Positions 18,801-42,793 of a DNA stretch of 64,000 bases are shown piece by piece. Under the pieces are notes generated by a model. It had not been told where the DNA came from. It saw only the letters and a program-made list of their open reading frames with translations, and did no database searches. Every line of letters begins with the position of its first letter. Position 1 is the first letter of the stretch. The position numbers and the translations under genes were made by a program. Location of the stretch: the NCBI RefSeq assembly GCF_009914755.1, contig NC_060928.1. The stretch is one strand, 5' to 3'. This DNA comes from the human T2T-CHM13v2.0 reference genome, Homo sapiens.

Positions 18801-19889
18801 TTGTATTTTCACACCCTTTTTAATAGTTTCTAACCCTTCCTCCTCCTACCCTTAAAATCATATAATATTGGGCACAAATGAGATTATCTTATGTGCTTAA
18901 TATTGCCTGTTTGCCAGTAAATTGGAACTTACTACTTAGGATGTATTCTCATTGGTTCCTTCATTGGACTGATGTCAGTAAATACTGTAACCCATTATCA
19001 CTACAGAGCAAATGAAGCGAGAGTTGGAGTAATATCTTGACCAACTGAAGCATTTTTTAAATGCAAGCTACACAAAGAAGACATGCCTTATGCATTTTTA
19101 TAACTGTTTGGGACCCCCATAGAGTTTTAACTTTATGCCAGTAGATACTTACTTTGAAACATTACTGTTGTTCCTAACAGTTGGCATTATCGTGTAGTGG
19201 AGAGACGGGGTATGAGGAGATTTGGTTTCCATTTGTGTGACCTTACGTGTGATACTTCACAGTCCATAAATTTAAGGAATTCGGATTGTTTTAACTCTTA
19301 CCAAAAATGTATTTTTGAAATTATAAATTCAATATGCAGTTCACTTTCTGCTTGACTTCACTCTCGCTTAGCCACCCTCTCTTTGTATAGAAGCAAAGAG
19401 ACATTTAATTTGCATACACAATGGGATAATGGAATGTATTGTCCTTTAGCGCAAAAAGATTACCTAAAGGTTATAATAATGCTAAATATTTCCTTATGAA
19501 ACTTGCTGTGGTTATACTTTATACTTGTATTATGATTTGTATAAATAGGATTATCTTATTTTGAATTTTCATAATTTTGTATAAGCATTGGATTATCACT
19601 TTTACTTAGTTCTGTCTTCATTAAAGCTTGATGTGGGGGAAATTTAGCTATGCAGAAGAGTGAAGAAAAGCTAACTACTTTTATTATCTAGAACATTATT
19701 TGCATTTCTTTTGTTAAAGGTAATTTTTCTTCAGATTGCCTGGATTACATGTTGGAGGGTTTTGAATGAGATTCACATACAACCTATTATCATTTACTTA
19801 TAGCAACTAATAACAAGAAAATTTGATCCAAAGAATCAAGGTACTTAGAAAATACACTGTTTTTATGTGTAATCCTTAATAATTTATAT

Positions 19890-20190
19890 TTGTTGTTGTT
19901 GTTGTTGTTGTTTTGAGACAGAGTCCCTCTGTCATGCAGGCTGGAGTGCAGTGGCGTGATCTCGGCTCACAGCAACCTGTGCCTCCCAGTTCAAGTGATT
20001 CTTGTCTCGGCCTCCTGAGTAGCTGGGATTACAGGTGCCCGCCACCACACCCGGCTTATTTTTGTATTTTTAGTAGAGATGGGGTTTCACCATGTTGGCC
20101 AAGTTGGTCTCGAACTCCTGACCTCAAGTGATTCACCCGCCTCGGCCTCCCAAAGGCTGGGATTACAGGCGTGAGCCACTGCGCCCGGCC
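19890..20190 (-). mobile_element. Alu (Sx-like) with (GTT)n-degenerated tail
   Basis: Alu dimer. Confidence 0.92.
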
Positions 20191-20334
20191 TAAAGTATTA
20201 GGTAACTTTTTTTTCAATTTCATAAAACATTGAGAGGAAAGAAACACCTTAAATAAGATCATACCTATCTGGGCTTTTCTTTTCCTCTTCTTTCTTTCTC
20301 CCCAACATCCTCCTCTCTTTTTTGACTTCTTAAT

Positions 20335-20761
20335 TGTGAATAAAGCTTCTGTAAATATATGTGGACAGGTTTTTATGTGGACATGTTTTCAGGTCCTTGA
20401 AATAAATATCAAGGAGCACAATTGCTAGATTGTATGATAAGCATATGTTTAGTTTTATAAGAAATTGTCACTGTCTTCCAAGGTAGCTGTACCATTTGTA
20501 CTCTCATCAGCAACAAATGAGAGTTACCCGTGCTCCACATCCTCGTCAGCGTTTGGTGTTGTCTGCTGTTTTGGATTTTTTACCATTGTGACAGTCATAT
20601 AGTGGTATCTTGTTTTAATTTGCAGTTCCCTAATGACATTTTGTTGGGCACCTCTTCATATGCTTATTGCTACCTGTATCTTTGTTGAGGTGTCTATTGA
20701 GGTCTTTTGCCCATCTTTTGATCAGCTTGTTTGTTGTCTTATTGTTGAGTTTTATGAGTTC

Positions 20762-20762
<1 letters not shown>
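20335..20762 (-). mobile_element. Old L1M 3' fragment interrupted by HERV-H; continues 26106-26190
   Basis: Antisense L1 ORF2-end/3'UTR-like text that reads through once HERV-H and one TSD copy are removed. Confidence 0.75.

Positions 20763-20763
<1 letters not shown>

Positions 20764-20811
<48 letters not shown>
20764..20811. repeat. (TG)24 microsatellite
   Basis: Directly visible perfect dinucleotide run. Confidence 0.98.
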
Positions 20812-20812
<1 letters not shown>

Positions 20813-21204
20813 AACATGGCTGTTTATTCCACCTGGGTGCAGGTGGGCTGAGTCCGAAAAGAGAGTCAGTGAAGGGAGATACGGGTGGGGCCGTTTTATA
20901 GGATTTGGGAAGGTAATGGAAAATTACGGTCAAAGGGGGTTGTTCTCTGGTGGGCAGGGGTGGATCTCACAAAGTACATTCTCAAGGGTGGGGAGAATTA
21001 CAAAGTCCCTTCTTAAGGGTGGGGGAGATTACAAAGTACATTGATCAGTTAGGGTGCGGCAGGAACAAATCACAATGGTGGAGTGTCATCAGTTAAGGCT
21101 GTTTTTACTTCTTTTGTGGATCTTCAGTTACTTTAGGCCATCTGGATGTATACGTGCAAGTCACAGGGGATGCGATGGCCTGGCCTGGGCTCAGAGGCCT
21201 GACA
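20812..21204 (-). mobile_element. LTR7 U3+R (3' LTR lacking U5)
   Basis: Starts TGTCAGGCCTCTGAGCCC at 21204, directly after PPT AAGAAGGCAGGAA (21217-21205); TATAAAA at 20900-20894; AATAAA at 20828-20823. Confidence 0.93.
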
Positions 21205-24200
21205 TTCCTGCCTTCTTATATTAATAAGACAAAACAAAATAGTGTTGAAGTGTTGGGGTGGTGAAAATTTTTGGGGGGTGGTATGGAGAGAGAATGGGTG
21301 ATGTTTCTCAGGGCTGCTTCAAGCGGGATTAGGGGTGGCGTGGGAACCTAGAGTGGGAGAGATTAAGCTGAAGGGAGATCTTGTGGTAAGGGGTGATATT
21401 GTGGGGATGTAAGAAGAAACATTTGTCGTATAGAATGATTGGTGATGGCCTGGATACGGTTTTGGATGAATTGAGAAACAAAATGGAATAAGAGAAGGAG
21501 AAAAACAGGTATAAAAGGTCTAAGAATTGGGAGGACCTAGGACATCTGATGAGAGAGTGCCTAAGGAGATGCAGCATAGTCCTGCCAGCAAAGATTATTT
21601 ATTTACTTCAAGAGTTTAGAGTGGCAGTTTGGGGATAGCACCAGGAGATATCAGCTGTGATGGCTAGGAGAAAGTGTAAACCGGCAGTGTAAACAAGAGC
21701 ACGGCATGCATGAGTAGTTGAGAACGGTGAATAGGAGTATGACTAGACAAAAGATAGTAGGGATGACAAGTTTTTTGGGGGCACAGTCTAAGTTGGTCTG
21801 GTGTCAAATGAGACTGGGGCCTAATAAAAAGGAGCGTCTATACAGGAGCTTAAATGGGCTGTACCTTGTAGCATTCTGAGGACAGGCCTGAATTCTGAGA
21901 AGCAAAAGTGGTAAAAGTATTGTCCAGTCCCTTTTAAGTTGGTGGCTGAGCTTGGTGAGCTGTGTTTTTAAAAGACCTTTAGTCCGTTCTACTTTTCTTG
22001 AAGACGGAGGACCGTAAGGGATATAAAGGTTTCACTGAAACCTACTAAAAGCCTGAAAAACTGCTTGGCTGATTTGACTAATAAAGGCTGGTCCGTCATC
22101 AGACTGTATAGAGGTGGGAAGGCTAAACTGAGGAATTATGTTTGACAGAAGGAAAGAAATGACTGCGGTGGCCTTCTCAGACCCTGTAGGAAAGGCCTTT
22201 ACTTATTCAGTGAAAGTGTCTATTTGGACTAAGAGGTATTTTAGTTTCCTGACTCGGGCATGTTGAGTAAAACTAATTTGCCAGTCCTGGGTGGGGCAAA
22301 TCCTCGAGCTTGATGTGTAGGGAAGGGAGGGGGCCTGAATAATCCCTGAGGAGTAGTAGAATAGCAGATGGAACACTGAGAAGTTATTTCCTTGAGGATA
22401 GATTTCCACGATGGAAAGGAAATGAGAGGTTCTAAGAGGCGGGCTAGTGGCTTGTACTATAGCATAGCCTGCCTTTGCTGGTATGCGGCGATTAGGCCTG
22501 GTGGAACTGCCATCAATAAATCAAGCGTGATCAGGGTGAGGAACAGGAAAGAAGGAAATATGGGGAAATGGGGTGAATATCAGGTGGATCAGAGAGATAC
22601 AGTCATGGGGGTCAGGTGTGGTATCAGGAATAATGTGGGAGGCCGGATTGAAGTCCGGGCCAGAAACAATGGTAATTGTGGGACTTAAAGAGTAAGTACA
22701 GCTGAAGGAGCCGGGGAGCAGAAAGTATATGCGTCAGGTATGAGGAAGAAAATAGATTTTGGAAGTTATGAGAAATGTAGAGAGTGAGTTGAGCATAGTT
22801 TGTGATTTTTAGGGCCTCTAAAAGTATTAAAGCAGCGGCAGCCGCTGCACGCAGACATGAGGGCTAGGCTAAAACAGTAAGGTCAAGTTGTTTGGACAGA
22901 AAGGCTACAGGGTGCAGTCCTGGCTCTTGTGTAAGAATTCTGACCGCACTAACCATGCCTAGGAAGGAAAGGAGTTGTTGTTTTGTAAGGGATTGAGGTT
23001 TGAGAGATTAATCGGACATGATCAGCAGGGAAAGCACGTGTGTTTTTATGAGAATTATGCCGAGATTAGGTAACAGATGAGGATGAAATTTGGGCTTGAC
23101 TGAAGTAATGGGGGCTGTCTGTGAAGCCTTGCGGCAGTACAGCCCAGGTAATTTGCTGAGTCAGGGTCAAAGTGAAAGCAAAGAGAGGCTGGGATGAAGG
23201 GTGCAAAGGAATAGTAAAGAAAGCACGTTTGAGATCTAGAACAGAATAATGGGTAGTAGAGGGAGGTATTGAGGATAGGAGAATATATGGGTTTGGCACC
23301 ACGGGGTGGATAGGCAAAACAATTTGGTTGATAAGGTGCAGATTCTGAACTAACTTGTAAGCCTTGTCTGGTTTTAGGACAGGTAAAATGGGGGAATGGT
23401 AAGGAGAGTTTATAGGCTTTAAAAGGTCATGCTGTAGCAGGCAAGTGATAACAGGCTTTAATCCTTTTAAAGCATGCTTTGGGATGGGATCTTGACATTG
23501 AGCGGGGTAAGGGTGATTAGGTTTTAATGAGATGGGAAGGGGTGCATGATCGGTCGCCAAGGAGGGAGTAGAGGTATCTTATACTTGTGGGTTAAGGTGG
23601 GGGGATATAAGAGGAGGAAACAAAGGAGGCTTTGGATTGGGAAGAAGGGCAGCAATGAGATGTAGCTGTAGTCCAGGAATAGTCAGGGAAGCAGATAATT
23701 TAAAGTGTCTCAGCCTAATAAGGGAACTGGGCAGGTGGGGATAACTAAAAAGGAGTGCTTAAAAGAGTATTGTCTAAGTTGGCACCAGAGTTGGGGAGTT
23801 TTAAGAGGTTTAGAAGCCTGGCCGTCAATACCCACAACAGTTATGGAGGCAAGGGAAACAGGCCCTTGAAAAGAAGGTAATGTGGAGTGGGTAGCCTCCA
23901 TATTGATTAAGAAGGGGACGGACTTACCTTCCACTGTGAGAGTTACCCAAAGCTCGGGGTCCGTGATGGTCTACGGGGCTTCCGAGGCGATCGGGCAGCA
24001 TCAGTCTTCAGCCGCTAAGCCGAGAAGGAGTCAGTCAGAGAGCCTTGGGCCAGAGTTCCAGGGGCTCTGGGAGTGGCTGCCAGGTGAGTTGAACAGTCCA
24101 ATTTCCAGTGGGGTCCCGCACAGATGGGACATGTCTTAGGAGGAATCCTGGGCTGCAGGCATTCCTTGGCCTAGTGGTCAGATTTCTGGCACTTGTAGCA

Positions 24201-25260
24201 AGCTCCTGTGGGAGGAGGTTCTGGAGGAACGCCTGTCCGCTGCAGTTCAGGCGTTTGGAAGTTCTTGTGTGCTGGAGATGTGGCTGGGGTTTGTCTCACA
24301 GTGGAGGCCAGGAATTGCAACTTTTTTCTATTATTGTACACCTTGAAGGCGAGGTTAATTAAATCCTGTTGTGGGGTTTGAGGGCCAGAATTTAATTTTT
24401 GGAGTTTTATTTAATGTCGGGAGCAGATTGGGTAATACAATGTATATTGAGAATAAGATAGCCTTTTGACATTTTAGGGTCTAGGGCTGTAAAGCGTCTC
24501 AGGGTTGCTGCCGAACGAGCCATGAACTGGGCTGGGTTTTTATATTTGATGAAAAAGCCTAAACACTATCTGATTTGGGATAAAGAAAAAGGAGCATTAA
24601 CCTTGACTATGCCTTTAGCTCCAGCCACCTTTTTAAGAATAAATTGCTGGGCAGGTGGGGGAGGGCTAGTCACAGAACGAAACTGTAAGCCAGACCAGGT
24701 GTGAGGAGGGGAGGCGATAAAAAGATTATAGGGTGGAGGAGTGGAGGCTGAGGAAGAATTGGGACCTAGCTTGGCCTGGCTAGGAGGGGAGAGGTCAGAT
24801 GGGTCTGTAGAAAAGGAAGATTAGAAAGACTCAGCGACGCTTGGCGTTGGGACTGAGGGGACAGGCAGGAGATTTGGGACGAGTTGCATTGGGCACAGAG
24901 ACTAGGAATGGACTGATGTGTAAAAGAATGCCTGGATGTCAGGCACCTCAGACCATTTGCCCATTTTACGACAGGAATTATTTAGATCTTGTAGGACGGA
25001 AAAATTGAAAGTGCCGTTTTCCGGCTATTTGGAACTACTGTCGAGTTTGTATTGGGGTCAAGCAACATTGCAGAAGAAAATAAGACACTTAGATTTTAGG
25101 TCAGGTGAGAGTTGAAGAGGTTTTAAGTTCTTAAGAATACAGGCTAAGGGAGAAGAAGGAGGAATGGAGGTGGAAGCTTGCCCATAGTGAAGGAGGCAAG
25201 CCCAGAGAAAAGAGAGCGTAGAGACACGGAGGGAAGGGGTTTGGGGGTTCTTGCCCCCTA

Positions 25261-25459
25261 GAAAAGCAGGACTTGCCGCTAAGGGTGAAGGAGAAGGGGT
25301 TGAGGGGTACTTGCCCCTGCCCCAGGAAAGCGGAACTTGCCGCTAAGCGTGAAGGAGAAGGGGTTGAGGGGTACTTGCCCCTGCCCCAGGAAAGCGGGAC
25401 TTGCCGCTAAGGGTGAAGGAGAAGGGGTTGAGGGGTACTTGCCCCTGCCCCAGGAAAGC
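25261..25459. repeat. 64-bp tandem repeat, about 3 copies, in the HERV-H leader
   Basis: ACTTGCCGCTAAG recurs at 25271, 25335, 25399 (and 25524). Confidence 0.9.
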
Positions 25460-25961
25460 AGAGAAGGGGTAGAGACAAGGAGAGAAGGGGTTGGGGTACT
25501 TGCCCCTTCCCCAGAAAAGCGGGACTTGCCGCTAAGGGTGAAGGACCAAGGCAGGCGTCCCTGCGTGGTCTGACACCCTTGATACATGGGTGTATAATCA
25601 GAGAGGCGTCCCTGCATTGATTAAACACCAAGGGAAGGCTGCCTTCCCAGTCCGTGACCGGCGCCGGAGTTTTGGGTCCACGGATAAAACGTGTCTCTTT
25701 TGTCTCTACCAGAAAATGAAAGGAATTGAAATTAAGAGAAGGGAGAGATTGAAGTGTAGCGCCAAGATTGAAAGGAGAAAGAGGTTGAGGGATAGTGAGG
25801 GAAGTTGGAGAAGAGAGTAAAAAGAGGCCGCTTACCGGATTTGAAATTGGTGTGATGTTTCTTGGGCTGGGCGGTCTGAGGACCTGAGGTCATAGGTGGA
25901 TCTTTCTCACGGAGCAAAGAGCAGGAGGACAGGGGATTGATCTCCCAAGGGAGGTCCCCCA

Positions 25962-25979
25962 ATCCGAGTCACGGCACCA
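25962..25979 (-). promoter_or_regulatory. HERV-H primer binding site (tRNA-His)
   Basis: TGGTGCCGTGACTCGGAT, complementary to the tRNA-His 3' end. Confidence 0.93.
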
Positions 25980-25981
25980 AA

Positions 25982-26088
25982 TTTCATACGCGTCCGTGTG
26001 AAGAGACCACCAAACAGGCTTTGTGTGAGCAACGTGGCTGTTTATTTCACCTGGGTGCAGGTGGGCTGAGTCCGAAAAGAGAGTCAGC
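25982..26088 (-). mobile_element. LTR7 R+U5 only (5' LTR lacking U3)
   Basis: Begins GCTGACTCTCTTTTCGG, ends ...GCGTATGAAA just before the PBS. Confidence 0.93.
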
Positions 26089-26997
26089 CGAGTTTTATGA
26101 GTTCTATATAATTTTGAATAATAGTCTTTTGTCAGATACATGTTTTGCAAGTATTTTCTCCAAGTCTGTGGCTTGTCTTCTCCTTCTCTTGATCTCTGGG
26201 GTATCTACATTTTTCTCATCACAACAACTTTATTCATGTCAGTAAATTCATCTTTACAAGTTTCTCTGGCTGCATATCTAGAGCCTTTTGAGCCGTGTCA
26301 GATTCCCACAGTCAGCTCTTTTCTCGATAACTCTTTATATTCAGTTTGAATTTCATTCCAGGATTATCAGTTTTTGTTCCTTTGCTGCACTTTCATCTTT
26401 GTTGGGGAGTTCCCTCTTTTGATTCATTTTTGTAAAATGTCAAAGGGATTTATCACTGGGCCACAAGCAGGCAATAGCAATACAACTACACACTTTGCTA
26501 TCTATGCAGGAATAACAGATGTGCAGTGACCTCTGGCAGTCTTTGATAGAAGTGACTGGTCATTGGTCATGATGTACATAGGTTATTTACACAGCGATAT
26601 GTGAACTGGAGAGCTACTAGCAAAGTTTGTGTTTTATGCAATTACAGGTAATTGTGGTAGCTGAAGTCCAAAACATTTTGGGGGAGGGGAAGAATGGTGT
26701 TGCTAAACCATTATGACTGCAATTCGTGCATGTTAGAACCTGTGCAAAGCAAGGTCTGCCTGTATTACATACTATTTTTCTGTAATTGTAAATGATGAGA
26801 AGCTATTCTGAAAGAAAAAGATACTGAAGAAAGATTTGTTTTTATTTTCCTTTTTAAAAATCAGAATATGGCTAAAGTGAAAATCTTAGTGGAGCTGGGG
26901 AGGGAGCATGTGGATTATCTGGCAGGCTGATGTAGCTGTCTTATCTGATGAGAGAGATGCCCCCGAGAAAAACAAACTTGAAGGCAACATGGATCAG
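26025..26997 (-). other. HPGDS: HPGDS 3'UTR with candidate poly(A) signals at 26846-26841, 26234-26229 and 26046-26041 (last one inside HERV-H R)
   Basis: tttatt on + strand at these positions downstream of the stop codon; the true end is inferred. Confidence 0.65.
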
Positions 26998-27162
26998 CTA
27001 GAGTTTGGTTTGGGGCCTTCGTTTTATCCAGTTAGCGACGGCAGGAATGGCTTGGACTTTCTTCCGTAAAGTCACCAGCCTTGGATGGTTGTCTAACAGG
27101 TCAGGCTTAAAGACCAAAAGTGTGGTACTGCAAATCTCCCAGTAGAAGTCTGCCCAAGTTAC
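26998..27162 (-). CDS. HPGDS: HPGDS last coding segment, VTWADFYWEICSTTLLVFKPDLLDNHPRLVTLRKKVQAIPAVANWIKRRPQTKL-stop
   Basis: 165 nt; the five exons sum to 600 nt = 199 aa + TAG. Confidence 0.97.
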   Translation of the reverse strand, partial: VTWADFYWEICSTTLLVFKPDLLDNHPRLVTLRKKVQAIPAVANWIKRRPQTKL

Positions 27163-28099
27163 CTAGTTTAAAGGAAACAAACTTTTCATTTGAACATAGA
27201 AAGTGTAGCTGTATCAGCATTCCAAAATTGAAATTAGTTTCTTAATCTAAAAGATTCAAAACAATCTTGTTATTACAAAAGCAGAATGTTTATATGATAG
27301 AAGTTCAGAAAATTACTGATATCACACTCCAGCAATCAGGTTACTACTATTAAACATTTTCGTGTATAAGATATTTTTCTATGCTGATAGATGTTGTTTT
27401 ACTAACATGAGATCTTAATGGTACATACTCTTGTAACCTTGTCCAGTCTCCACCTCTCTGTGACAATACATTTTCCTTATCCAATAACCAATACGTATTT
27501 TTCCATCTGTTCTAAAATTGCCCTTTACAGGACAAAGCAGGATCTATTCCAGGTCTATGCATTTGATCTGCTTATGTCCATTAACTCTTCAAAGCAGTAC
27601 CCTTTTTTTCACATCACCAAATTATTGAAGATTTCACACTAGTCCTACAGAATGTTCTATCTTCAGGACCTTTGTATTTCATCTTACCTTGTTCCTTTGT
27701 ACTACGTAGTATAAAGGAAGGTGCAGGTTACTCTTAGAGGGTATATAATTTCAAGTGAAATATTTGTGGCTAAAATACATTATATTGTATCACATAAAAA
27801 GAATATATGGATGTCTGACCATTAGGGGTATGCCAAGATTGGCCACTGGATTAGTGATGACAGCCTGGTCCTACCATTGTACAGTTGTATGTTTTTATCT
27901 TTGTGTTAGAAACTAATCTGTATGCTGTTACTTTGGCTCCATATGATTATCAAAGAGTGAAGTTTAAATGTGGCCCACTCTTTTTTCTTTTTGTATAGAA
28001 TTTAATAAAGCTGATTGCTAGTGCCTCAGGAACTTATTAAACATCTGTCAGCCAAGAGAAGCTACTGGCTGGAAGACTCAGAATTCAGAATAAATCCAG

Positions 28100-36639: not shown

Positions 36640-42793
<6,154 letters not shown>

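What the first reader, a model, noticed from the sequence alone, without database searches (positions are those of the whole stretch)
20747..26105. HERV-H copy with the anatomy of an L1-retrotransposed viral mRNA, not a provirus
Seen: the 5' end begins exactly at R (26088). That is the position equivalent to 30 nt downstream of the TATA box in the other LTR (TATA 20900, R start 20870), and U3 is absent. The 3' end stops at the poly(A) site just past AATAAA, and U5 is absent. The element is flanked by a perfect 16-bp TSD (GAGTTTTATGAGTTCT) and splits an old L1M. One extra G (26089) sits between the TSD and R. Established: retroviral integrase produces complete LTRs and short TSDs (about 5 bp for HERV-H). 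L1 target-primed reverse transcription produces longer TSDs, mRNA-colinear ends and often a cap-derived untemplated G. Such processed copies are common for HERV-W and much rarer for HERV-H. Inference: a full-length unspliced HERV-H RNA was captured by L1 ORF2p. Repeat annotation would probably list it as an ordinary provirus with truncated LTRs.
Basis: partly seen in the sequence, partly recalled or inferred. Interest (0 to 1): 0.85.

Follow-up and report, generated by a model that had tools for sequence, protein, structure and literature searches.

The report
L1-made retrocopy of HERV-H RNA
This HERV-H element is not an integrated provirus but a DNA copy of a full-length viral RNA pasted in by the LINE-1 machinery, one of a small class of such copies in the human genome, and it sits exactly at the end of the HPGDS gene.

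Summary
On the minus strand the element runs from 26089 to 20763. It reads: one extra G, R-U5-PBS, about 4.8 kb of colinear internal sequence (protease and RT remnants), then U3-R. U3 occurs once in the window, U5 once and R twice. A perfect 16-bp duplication flanks it. In 5 of 5 paralogous L1 copies the two flanks overlap by exactly those 16 bp, so the target held a single 16-mer.

(CA)24 plus AA fills that position.

The element is not unique. A 3'-anchored screen of the same genome found 12 further loci where LTR7 R is followed by poly(A). Eight of them start at the same R base without U3, and six of these carry a clear extra G. A 5'-anchored screen adds 19 loci (18 events) known from the junction only.

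The closest relative is a complete provirus on contig 7. It differs by 2.44% and has full LTRs and a 5-bp duplication. This suggests an insertion no older than roughly 6-11 million years.

Verdict: a new member of a known kind, the L1-made retroviral processed pseudogene. Interest is moderate.

The parts
26090..26105 (-). Target-site duplication, copy at the element's 5' side
   Evidence: Exact 16-mer, found twice in the window.
26089..26089 (-). Untemplated extra G between the duplication and R
   Evidence: The closest provirus reads TTCG before CTGACTC in both LTRs. None of 11 retrocopy 3' LTRs reads GG at this junction.
26024..26088 (-). 5' R, from the start G (26088) to the poly(A)-site position GCTCACA; AATAAA at 26046-26041
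   Evidence: The poly(A)-site position is taken from 12 sister loci.
25982..26023 (-). U5, present only at this end
   Evidence: the tested stretch 26024-25976 has a single match in the window.
25964..25981 (-). Primer-binding site directly after U5
   Evidence: Read. The same string follows the 5' LTR of the contig-7 provirus. The tRNA-His assignment is recalled, not tested.
21205..25963 (-). Colinear internal HERV-H region: 64-bp tandem repeats at 25215-25545, protease remnant at 23710-23970, RT remnant at 23066-23578
   Evidence: RVP E 7.1e-05 and RVT_1 E 4.5e-10; repeats; two blastn segments (96.4% over 796 nt and 96.5% over 4684 nt) align it colinearly to a complete provirus.
20871..21204 (-). 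U3 of the 3' LTR, present only at this end; TATAAAA at 20900-20894
20811..20870 (-). 3' R ending at GTTGC; AATAAA at 20828-20823
   Evidence: family D3.
20763..20810 (-). (CA)n microsatellite plus AA where a poly(A) tail is expected
   Evidence: (TG)24, 100% matches, 20764-20811. It is absent from the paralogous L1 copies, whose flanks join directly.
20747..20762 (-). Target-site duplication, copy at the element's 3' side
20332..20746 (-). Downstream part of the interrupted L1 fragment
   Evidence: colinear with L004-L008 over 363-431 nt. Orientation.
26106..26193 (-). Upstream part of the interrupted L1 fragment
   Evidence: 85-87% identity to L004-L008; match to window 37522-37603, next to an RVT_1 ORF.
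26053..27162 (-). HPGDS last exon (hub annotation); its last 36 nt are the extra G and the first 35 nt of HERV-H R
   Evidence: Hub gene table: no canonical signal within about 170 nt upstream of 26053, and R's AATAAA lies 7 nt downstream.

Best explanation
A full-length, unspliced HERV-H transcript was reverse-transcribed at a LINE-1 endonuclease nick and inserted by target-primed reverse transcription. The transcript started at the LTR7 start site and was cleaved at the LTR7 poly(A) site.

The nick lay in an old, minus-sense L1 ORF2 fragment about 120 nt beyond an HPGDS poly(A) signal. The + strand was cut between 26105 and 26106 of the present sequence (GTTCT/ATATAA). cDNA synthesis ran from the RNA's 3' end to its capped 5' end and added one G opposite the cap. 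Second-strand cleavage 16 bp away produced the duplication.

The product lacks U3 at its 5' end, so it has no promoter of its own there. It also lacks U5 at its 3' end.

The A tail was later replaced by a (CA)n microsatellite that grew from the CACA at the poly(A) site. The RNA came from the contig-7 provirus or a close sibling of it. The insertion is probably no older than about 6-11 million years.

Shown: the anatomy, the single-copy target, the sister copies and the related provirus.
Inferred: L1 as the enzyme, the cap origin of the G, the history of the tail and the age.
For: **Ends**
- R-U5 at the 5' end and U3-R at the 3' end. U3 and U5 each occur once in the window and R twice.

**Duplication**
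- It is 16 bp and perfect, with 0.09 matches expected by chance.
- It was made from one copy: the flanks overlap by exactly 16 bp in 5 of 5 paralogous L1 copies.

**Extra G**
- The junction reads duplication, GG, CTGACTC.
- The closest provirus has TTCG before CTGACTC in both LTRs.
- None of 11 retrocopy 3' LTRs reads GG there.

**Nick context**
- AT|AGAA in the element's sense, against the TT/AAAA motif quoted for HERV-W pseudogenes.
- Sister copies show TT|AAAA, TT|AGAA (two), AT|AGAA, AT|AAAA, TG|AAAA, AG|AAAA and AG|AAAG. These were read by eye.

**Sister copies**
- 12 other loci have LTR7 R followed by at least 12 A, with 0 hits in the reversed-pattern control.
- 8 of the 12 align from the same R-start base with no U3 upstream, and have duplications of about 9-18 bp.
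- Of these 8, six have an unambiguous extra G, one is ambiguous (L045) and one has none (L040).
- 4 of the 12 retain only the last 0.08-1.5 kb, as expected of L1 5' truncation.

**Internal region**
- Protease then RT in order. It aligns colinearly to a complete provirus in two blastn segments of 96.4% and 96.5% identity.

**Contrast case**
- That provirus has full LTRs and a 5-bp duplication, GTTGG.
Against: - There is no poly(A) tail at this locus, only (CA)24 and two A. The tail is inferred from the sister loci.
- The nick context matches only 4 of 6 positions of TT|AAAA.
- The two A and the first AG of the duplication could also be read as the first bases of U5 (CACAAAG). The RNA's exact 3' end is therefore uncertain by about 5 nt, and the duplication could be 14 bp plus a 2-nt microhomology.
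- No orthologous empty site was seen. The single-copy target rests on paralogues.
- Pfam found nothing in the flank ORFs or in two paralogues. The L1 identity of the flank therefore rests on one 82-nt, 75.6% match next to an RVT_1 ORF, on copy number (1686 first-look candidates) and on recall.
Confidence: 0.93

Rival explanations
1. It is an ordinary integrase-made provirus. Two independent deletions then removed U3 from the 5' LTR and U5 from the 3' LTR.
For: HERV-H copies are often damaged. Repeat masking alone (hub table) would not tell the two apart.
Against: - Both 'deletions' would have to end exactly at the start site and at the poly(A) site.
- They would have to leave a perfect 16-bp duplication of a sequence that is single-copy in 5 of 5 paralogous L1 copies.
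- They would have to add a G.
- Eight other loci show the same two boundaries.
- A real provirus of the same lineage has a 5-bp duplication.
Confidence: 0.01
2. It is a DNA-level copy (segmental duplication or gene conversion) of a retrocopy made elsewhere, not an insertion event at this site.
For: One retrocopy pair with identical flanks does exist (L065/L066 on contig 7). Such duplications therefore occur.
Against: - The flanks here are the two halves of one L1 fragment, joined through the 16-mer.
- The best other match in the genome is 97% identical and is a provirus with full LTRs, not a second retrocopy with these flanks.
Confidence: 0.01
3. It is an L1-made retrocopy, but of an RNA without a normal A tail. 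Priming would have been by microhomology at the CACAAAG/AG junction, or the (CA)n would have been made during insertion rather than afterwards.
For: - Only two A remain, and the (CA)24 is perfect although the copy may be millions of years old.
- CACAAAG at the 3' junction equals the first bases of U5 as seen in the 5' copy.
Against: - All 12 sister loci, plus one more found with a shorter A run, carry A tails at TCACA, TCA or similar.
- Microsatellites growing out of retroelement tails are well known (recalled).
- A perfect array is what active slippage produces.
Confidence: 0.05

Closest known systems
HERV-W processed pseudogenes made by L1 (Pavlicek et al. 2002, as summarised in Grandi et al. 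2016, PMC5016936, passages seen)
   Same: 5' LTR reduced to R-U5, 3' LTR reduced to U3-R, colinear with viral RNA, flanking duplication of variable length, L1-type insertion motif, frequent 5' truncation in the class.
   Different: The retroviral group differs (HERV-H, LTR7). At this locus the A tail is replaced by (CA)24. Such copies are the minority among HERV-H, whereas they are the majority of HERV-W copies according to those papers.
Retrotransposed HERV-K(HML-2) rec mRNA at 2q32.1 (Schmitt et al. 2013, PMC3590776, passages seen)
   Same: L1 hallmarks: a 13-nt duplication, an A stretch and truncated LTRs. [quoted passage not shown]
   Different: That copy derives from a spliced mRNA. This one derives from the unspliced full-length RNA.
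Spliced HERV-H copies in genomic DNA (Goodchild et al. 1995; not seen, known only through citing passages)
   Same: Same retroviral group. They show that HERV-H RNA forms were copied back into the genome.
   Different: One search's passage describes the spliced form as found among cloned HERV-H proviruses. Whether those have L1 hallmarks could not be checked. The copy here is unspliced and has R-start and R-end boundaries.
Complete HERV-H provirus at G000 contig 7, 26159719-26165279 (L077)
   Same: 97.56% identical over 5205 aligned nt, with the same internal layout, primer-binding site and LTR7 type.
   Different: It has U3-R-U5 at both ends, TG...-type LTR termini, a 5-bp duplication (GTTGG), no extra G and no tail.
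Processed pseudogenes of cellular mRNAs
   Same: Same presumed enzyme and the same end anatomy: cap G, poly(A) site, and a long duplication at an A-rich nick site.
   Different: The template is a 5.3-kb retroviral genomic RNA. The copy therefore carries a complete U3 promoter at its 3' end.

Membership tests
L1-made retroviral processed pseudogene (criteria quoted for HERV-W) | 5' LTR reduced to R-U5, starting at the transcription start | tested here: met
   no U3 upstream. The start lies 30 nt after the first T of the TATA box, by comparison with the 3' LTR.
L1-made retroviral processed pseudogene (criteria quoted for HERV-W) | 3' LTR reduced to U3-R, ending at the poly(A) site | tested here: met
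   no U5. The end lies 12 nt after AATAAA, at the position where 12 sister loci carry A tails.
L1-made retroviral processed pseudogene (criteria quoted for HERV-W) | [quoted passage not shown] | tested here: inconclusive
   (CA)24 plus two A occupy the tail position. An original A tail can be neither shown nor excluded. Sister loci have tails of 12 to more than 30 A.
L1-made retroviral processed pseudogene (criteria quoted for HERV-W) | TT/AAAA-type insertion motif | tested here: inconclusive
   AT|AGAA matches 4 of 6 positions. The same or closer variants are seen in the 8 sister copies (read by eye).
L1-made retroviral processed pseudogene (criteria quoted for HERV-W) | Flanking target-site duplication longer than an integrase duplication, made from a single-copy target | tested here: met
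   16 of 16 bp identical. The target is single-copy in 5 of 5 paralogues.
L1-made retroviral processed pseudogene (criteria quoted for HERV-W) | Insertion absent from the orthologous site of outgroup species | not testable with these tools
   No primate genomes other than the window's own assembly are held.
Integrase-made HERV-H provirus | Complete U3-R-U5 LTRs at both ends | tested here: not met
   U3 once, U5 once. The contig-7 relative meets this.
Integrase-made HERV-H provirus | Short (5-bp) target-site duplication | tested here: not met
   16 bp here. The contig-7 provirus has 5 bp.
HERV-H (LTR7 / HERVH-int) sequence family | Sequence identity to HERV-H proviruses along the whole length, with retroviral pro and pol remnants | tested here: met
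   colinear matches at 89-97% to many loci; 2.44% difference from a complete provirus. RVP and RVT_1. The name LTR7/HERV-H itself is recalled from the LTR start and primer-binding-site strings, since no repeat library is held.

The most novel reading that the evidence does not exclude
HERV-H RNA was a recurrent L1 template, not an exceptional one. At least 9 copies are verified at both ends, and up to about 27 independent insertions begin at the same LTR7 start base in one human genome.

A few percent of what is catalogued as HERV-H 'proviruses' would then be promoterless L1 products. This would run against the printed statement that HERV-W is the sole HERV group mobilised by L1.

These copies would serve as a fossil record of the LTR7 start site and poly(A) site. 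They would also distort LTR-based dating, provirus-to-solo-LTR ratios and locus-level 'ERV expression' calls.

At this locus, the ERV signal reported at HPGDS would be read-through of the gene into a promoterless copy that supplies its distal end.
Probability: 0.4. Interest if true: 0.55.

Novelty: new member of a known kind. Interest (0 to 1): 0.42.

Why it matters
- **Annotation.** A copy like this looks like a provirus to repeat and provirus finders. It has no 5' promoter, its two 'LTRs' share only about 60 nt, and it cannot collapse into a solo LTR. It should therefore be left out of LTR-divergence dating, solo-LTR statistics and 'provirus activation' analyses.
- **Biology of HERV-H.** The class shows that HERV-H RNA met active L1 in the germ line or early embryo repeatedly. 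It also pins the LTR7 start base and cleavage site without any RNA data.
- **This locus.** The copy lies in the sense orientation at the very end of HPGDS, and the annotated mRNA ends inside its R. A 2026 paper (passages seen) names HPGDS as an example of an ERV that hosts a splice or transcription end site in human brain long reads. The anatomy found here predicts that such ERV reads are HPGDS read-through, not LTR-driven transcription.

Tried and rejected
- **Pfam on the flanks.** Scans of flank ORFs and of ORFs in two paralogous loci gave no family. The L1 identity of the flank was then approached through a window-internal match next to an RVT_1 ORF.
- **Corrected orientation.** My first reading, that the flanking L1 is +-sense (note 1), was wrong. 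Searches show it is minus-sense, and note 4 corrects this.
- **Rfam.** A gathering-threshold scan of 19500-27500 gave 0 matches.
- **Shorter A run.** A 3'-end pattern requiring only 7 A added just one locus (13 hits: the 12 known and contig 1:197110823). It did not supply 3' ends for the 19 loci known from the 5' junction alone, which therefore remain half-verified.
- **Literature.**
  - Nine searches and passages from 13 papers turned up no description of L1-type HERV-H copies as a class.
  - The searches hit only full text held in the library.
  - Pavlicek 2002 and Jern 2005 are not held, and Goodchild 1995 and Belshaw 2005 were not seen. 'Not in print' is therefore not established.
  - No supplements were opened.
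- **Earlier findings of this scan.** They were closed to the session.
- **Rejected readings.** Doubly truncated provirus, segmental duplication, and chance direct repeat; see the rival explanations.
Full report
**1. What is in the sequence**

The element lies on the minus strand. GAGTTTTATGAGTTCT occurs exactly twice in the 64-kb window, at 20747-20762 and 26090-26105.

Read in the element's sense, the upstream 16-mer is followed by GG and then CTGACTCTC.... The same string in the 3' LTR is preceded by ...TATAAAACGG...CCCTTCA. The first T of the TATA box is at 20900, and the base equivalent to the start is at 20870.

A 59-nt stretch of R is present at both ends at 96.6% identity. The 322 nt of U3 tested match only 21192-20871. 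The 49 nt of U5 tested match only 26024-25976. After U5 comes the primer-binding site (25981-25964).

The interior carries a protease remnant (23710-23970, RVP, E 7.1e-05) followed by an RT remnant (23066-23578, RVT_1, E 4.5e-10). These were the only Pfam hits among the 18 minus-strand ORFs tested inside the element. The copy is therefore colinear with an unspliced genomic RNA.

The 3' R ends at GTTGC (20811), 12 nt after AATAAA.

**2.

No A tail follows the 3' R. The interval 20764-20811 is a perfect (TG)24 on the + strand, i.e. (CA)n in the element's sense. Two A and then the duplication follow it. In the 5' copy, R continues GTTGC-TCACACAAAGCC into U5. The microsatellite therefore sits exactly on the CACA of the poly(A) site.

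**3. The duplication was made by the insertion**

A search of the window's own genome with the upstream flank returned paralogous repeat copies. In 5 of 5 of those that match the 104 bp next to the element (L004-L008), the upstream flank ends at the last base of the 16-mer. The downstream flank begins at its first base. The two flanks thus overlap by exactly 16 bp, with no (CA)n between them. The ancestral repeat therefore had one 16-mer and no microsatellite.

The flank repeat is an L1 fragment in minus orientation. Window 26098-26178 matches window 37522-37603 plus/plus at 75.6%. That stretch lies in a minus-strand ORF directly downstream of a minus-strand ORF with RVT_1 (E 7.5e-26). Pfam found nothing in the flank ORFs themselves or in two paralogues. 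The subfamily was not determined.

**4. Mechanism**

The cDNA (+ strand) continues from ...GAGTTCT. The first nick was therefore GTTCT/ATATAA on the + strand, or AT|AGAA in the element's sense. This matches four of six positions of the TT/AAAA motif quoted for HERV-W pseudogenes.

Four features fit target-primed reverse transcription by L1:
- RNA-colinear ends.
- A 16-bp duplication.
- One untemplated G at the 5' end.
- An A-rich nick site.

An integrase product would have complete LTRs and a short duplication.

**5. The contrast case and the age**

The whole element was searched against the genome. The best hit is a provirus on contig 7 (26159719-26165279).

Features of that provirus, fetched as L077:
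- It has U3-R-U5 at both ends.
- It is flanked by a 5-bp duplication (GTTGG).
- It reads TTCG before CTGACTC in both LTRs, so one of the two G at 26089/26088 is not templated.

Divergence:
- The retrocopy differs from the provirus at 127 of 5205 aligned positions (2.44%; 1.54% outside CpG context).
- There are 15 gap events, one of which is a single 64-bp repeat unit.
- The provirus's own LTRs differ at 10 of 440 positions (2.27%).

Equal values mean one of two things. Either the provirus is the source and was copied soon after it integrated, or both descend from one master at about that time. With recalled neutral rates of 1.1-2.2e-9 per site per year, the distance gives an upper bound of roughly 6-11 million years for the insertion. 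This is inference. The perfect duplication is compatible with it but adds little information.

**6. It is one of a class**

*Screen anchored on the 3' end.* The pattern was the R end, up to 12 further bases, then at least 12 A. It gave 32 overlapping matches at 12 distinct loci, and none with the reversed-pattern control.
- Tails start after TCACA at 8 loci, after TCA at 2, after TCC at 1 and after TCAT at 1.
- Ten kb was fetched for each locus.
- 8 of the 12 align to this element from its first or second base, with no U3 upstream.
- The other four keep only the last 0.08-1.5 kb.
- The junctions of the 8 show duplications of about 9-18 bp and A-rich nick contexts (partly read by eye).
- Six of the 8 have an unambiguous extra G. 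One is ambiguous because the target itself ends in G (L045). One has none (L040).
- None of 11 retrocopy 3' LTRs, including this one, reads GG at the U3/R junction.

*Screen anchored on the 5' end.* The pattern was GG plus 19 nt of R. It gave 64 hits and none in the control.
- 30 sit in true U3 context with a TATA box upstream, an LTR variant reading ...CCCTTGG.
- 6 more are in U3 context with a mutated TATA box (L052, L055, L060, L063, L069, L070).
- One is an inverted R-U5/R junction (L057).
- 8 are this element and seven of the loci already found.
- 19 abut unrelated flanks. Two of these have identical flanks (L065, L066), which leaves 18 events.
- This screen is biased towards GG starts.
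- These 19 loci were not verified at their 3' ends. A relaxed 3' pattern added only one new locus.

In sum, 9 copies including this one are verified at both ends, and about 27 events are possible. Both screens demand exact matches, so both are lower bounds.

**7. Literature**

- Grandi et al. 2016 (passages) give the defining features of such pseudogenes.
- Schmitt et al. 2013 (passages) describe an L1-type HML-2 rec copy. They cite Goodchild 1995 and Pavlicek 2002 for retrotransposed HERV-H and HERV-W.
- A 2025 J Virol paper (passages) describes Goodchild's spliced form as found among cloned HERV-H proviruses.
- Vargiu et al. 2016 (passages) state that their 'proviruses' may include processed pseudogenes, and that the two were not distinguished.
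- Thomas et al. 2018 (passages) excluded L1-made copies for HERV-W only.
- The passages shown from three HERV-H papers did not mention L1-made HERV-H copies: Gemmell 2016, a 2025 review (12 of 30 places shown) and Carter 2022.
- The primary papers that could settle priority are not held or were not seen.

I therefore rate the locus as a new member of a known kind. I leave open whether the HERV-H class has been listed in print.

**8. Surroundings**

HPGDS runs on the same strand, and its annotated last exon ends at 26053, inside the 5' R. Minus-strand AATAAA signals in that exon lie at 26846, 26234 and 26046. The last of these is the HERV-H R signal, 7 nt beyond the annotated end. No canonical signal lies within about 170 nt upstream of 26053.

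I infer that the true distal end is the R poly(A) site near 26024, and that the retrocopy donated it.

A 2026 Science Advances paper (passages; figure not held) names HPGDS as an example of an ERV hosting a splice or transcription end site in long reads from human putamen. It uses RetroTector provirus predictions. I could not confirm that it is this element. Because the copy has no U3 at its 5' end, its RNA signal should be HPGDS read-through.

The intact U3-R at the 3' end (TATA box at 20900) points towards the SMARCAD1 3' end, which lies 2 kb away on the other strand. Whether it fires was not tested.

**9. Verdict**

The tail and the nick motif are the two soft points. Orthologous primate loci are the decisive missing evidence.

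Noticed in passing
window 26024-26088 and 26053-27162 (minus strand): The annotated HPGDS mRNA ends at 26053, inside the HERV-H R and 7 nt before R's AATAAA (26046-26041). There is no canonical signal within about 170 nt upstream. The retrocopy probably supplies the distal poly(A) site. A 2026 paper names HPGDS as an ERV-hosted end or splice site (passages only).
   Followed up: partly
window 20764-20811: A perfect (TG)24/(CA)24 microsatellite occupies the place of the retrocopy's A tail. It is seeded on the CACA of the LTR7 poly(A) site and is absent from the paralogous L1 copies.
   Followed up: partly
L065 (G000 contig 7:144897951-144898045) and L066 (contig 7:145067145-145067239): Two HERV-H R-start junctions in opposite orientation, 170 kb apart, have identical 70-nt upstream flanks. 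One retrocopy appears to have been carried along by an inverted segmental duplication.
   Followed up: no
L057 (G000 contig 3:90149473-90149567): An LTR7 R start is directly preceded by the reverse complement of R-U5. This is a head-to-head inverted junction, unlike either a provirus or a retrocopy.
   Followed up: no
genome-wide: At least 36 LTR7 copies read ...CCCTTGG instead of ...CCCTTCG at the U3/R junction, in some proviruses in both LTRs. This LTR variant mimics the GG start of retrocopies and must be excluded in any census.
   Followed up: partly
window 25215-25545: The leader carries a 64-bp tandem repeat (4.6 copies). This copy has one unit more than the contig-7 provirus. Sister retrocopies differ widely here; for example, L049 has many more units.
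   Followed up: no
G000 contig 4:97400146-97405381: Another HERV-H copy lies about 200 kb upstream on the same chromosome and strand. At 87-91% identity it is not the source.
   Followed up: no
window 26193-26645: The HPGDS 3' UTR upstream of the L1 fragment is a different old repeat, with 68-70% matches to L002 and L003. Most of this UTR is therefore repeat-derived.
   Followed up: no
window 19890-20190: The left flank holds a repeat about 300 bp long, with 14 or more copies in the window at 70-85% identity. It is presumably an Alu, but the name was not tested.
   Followed up: no
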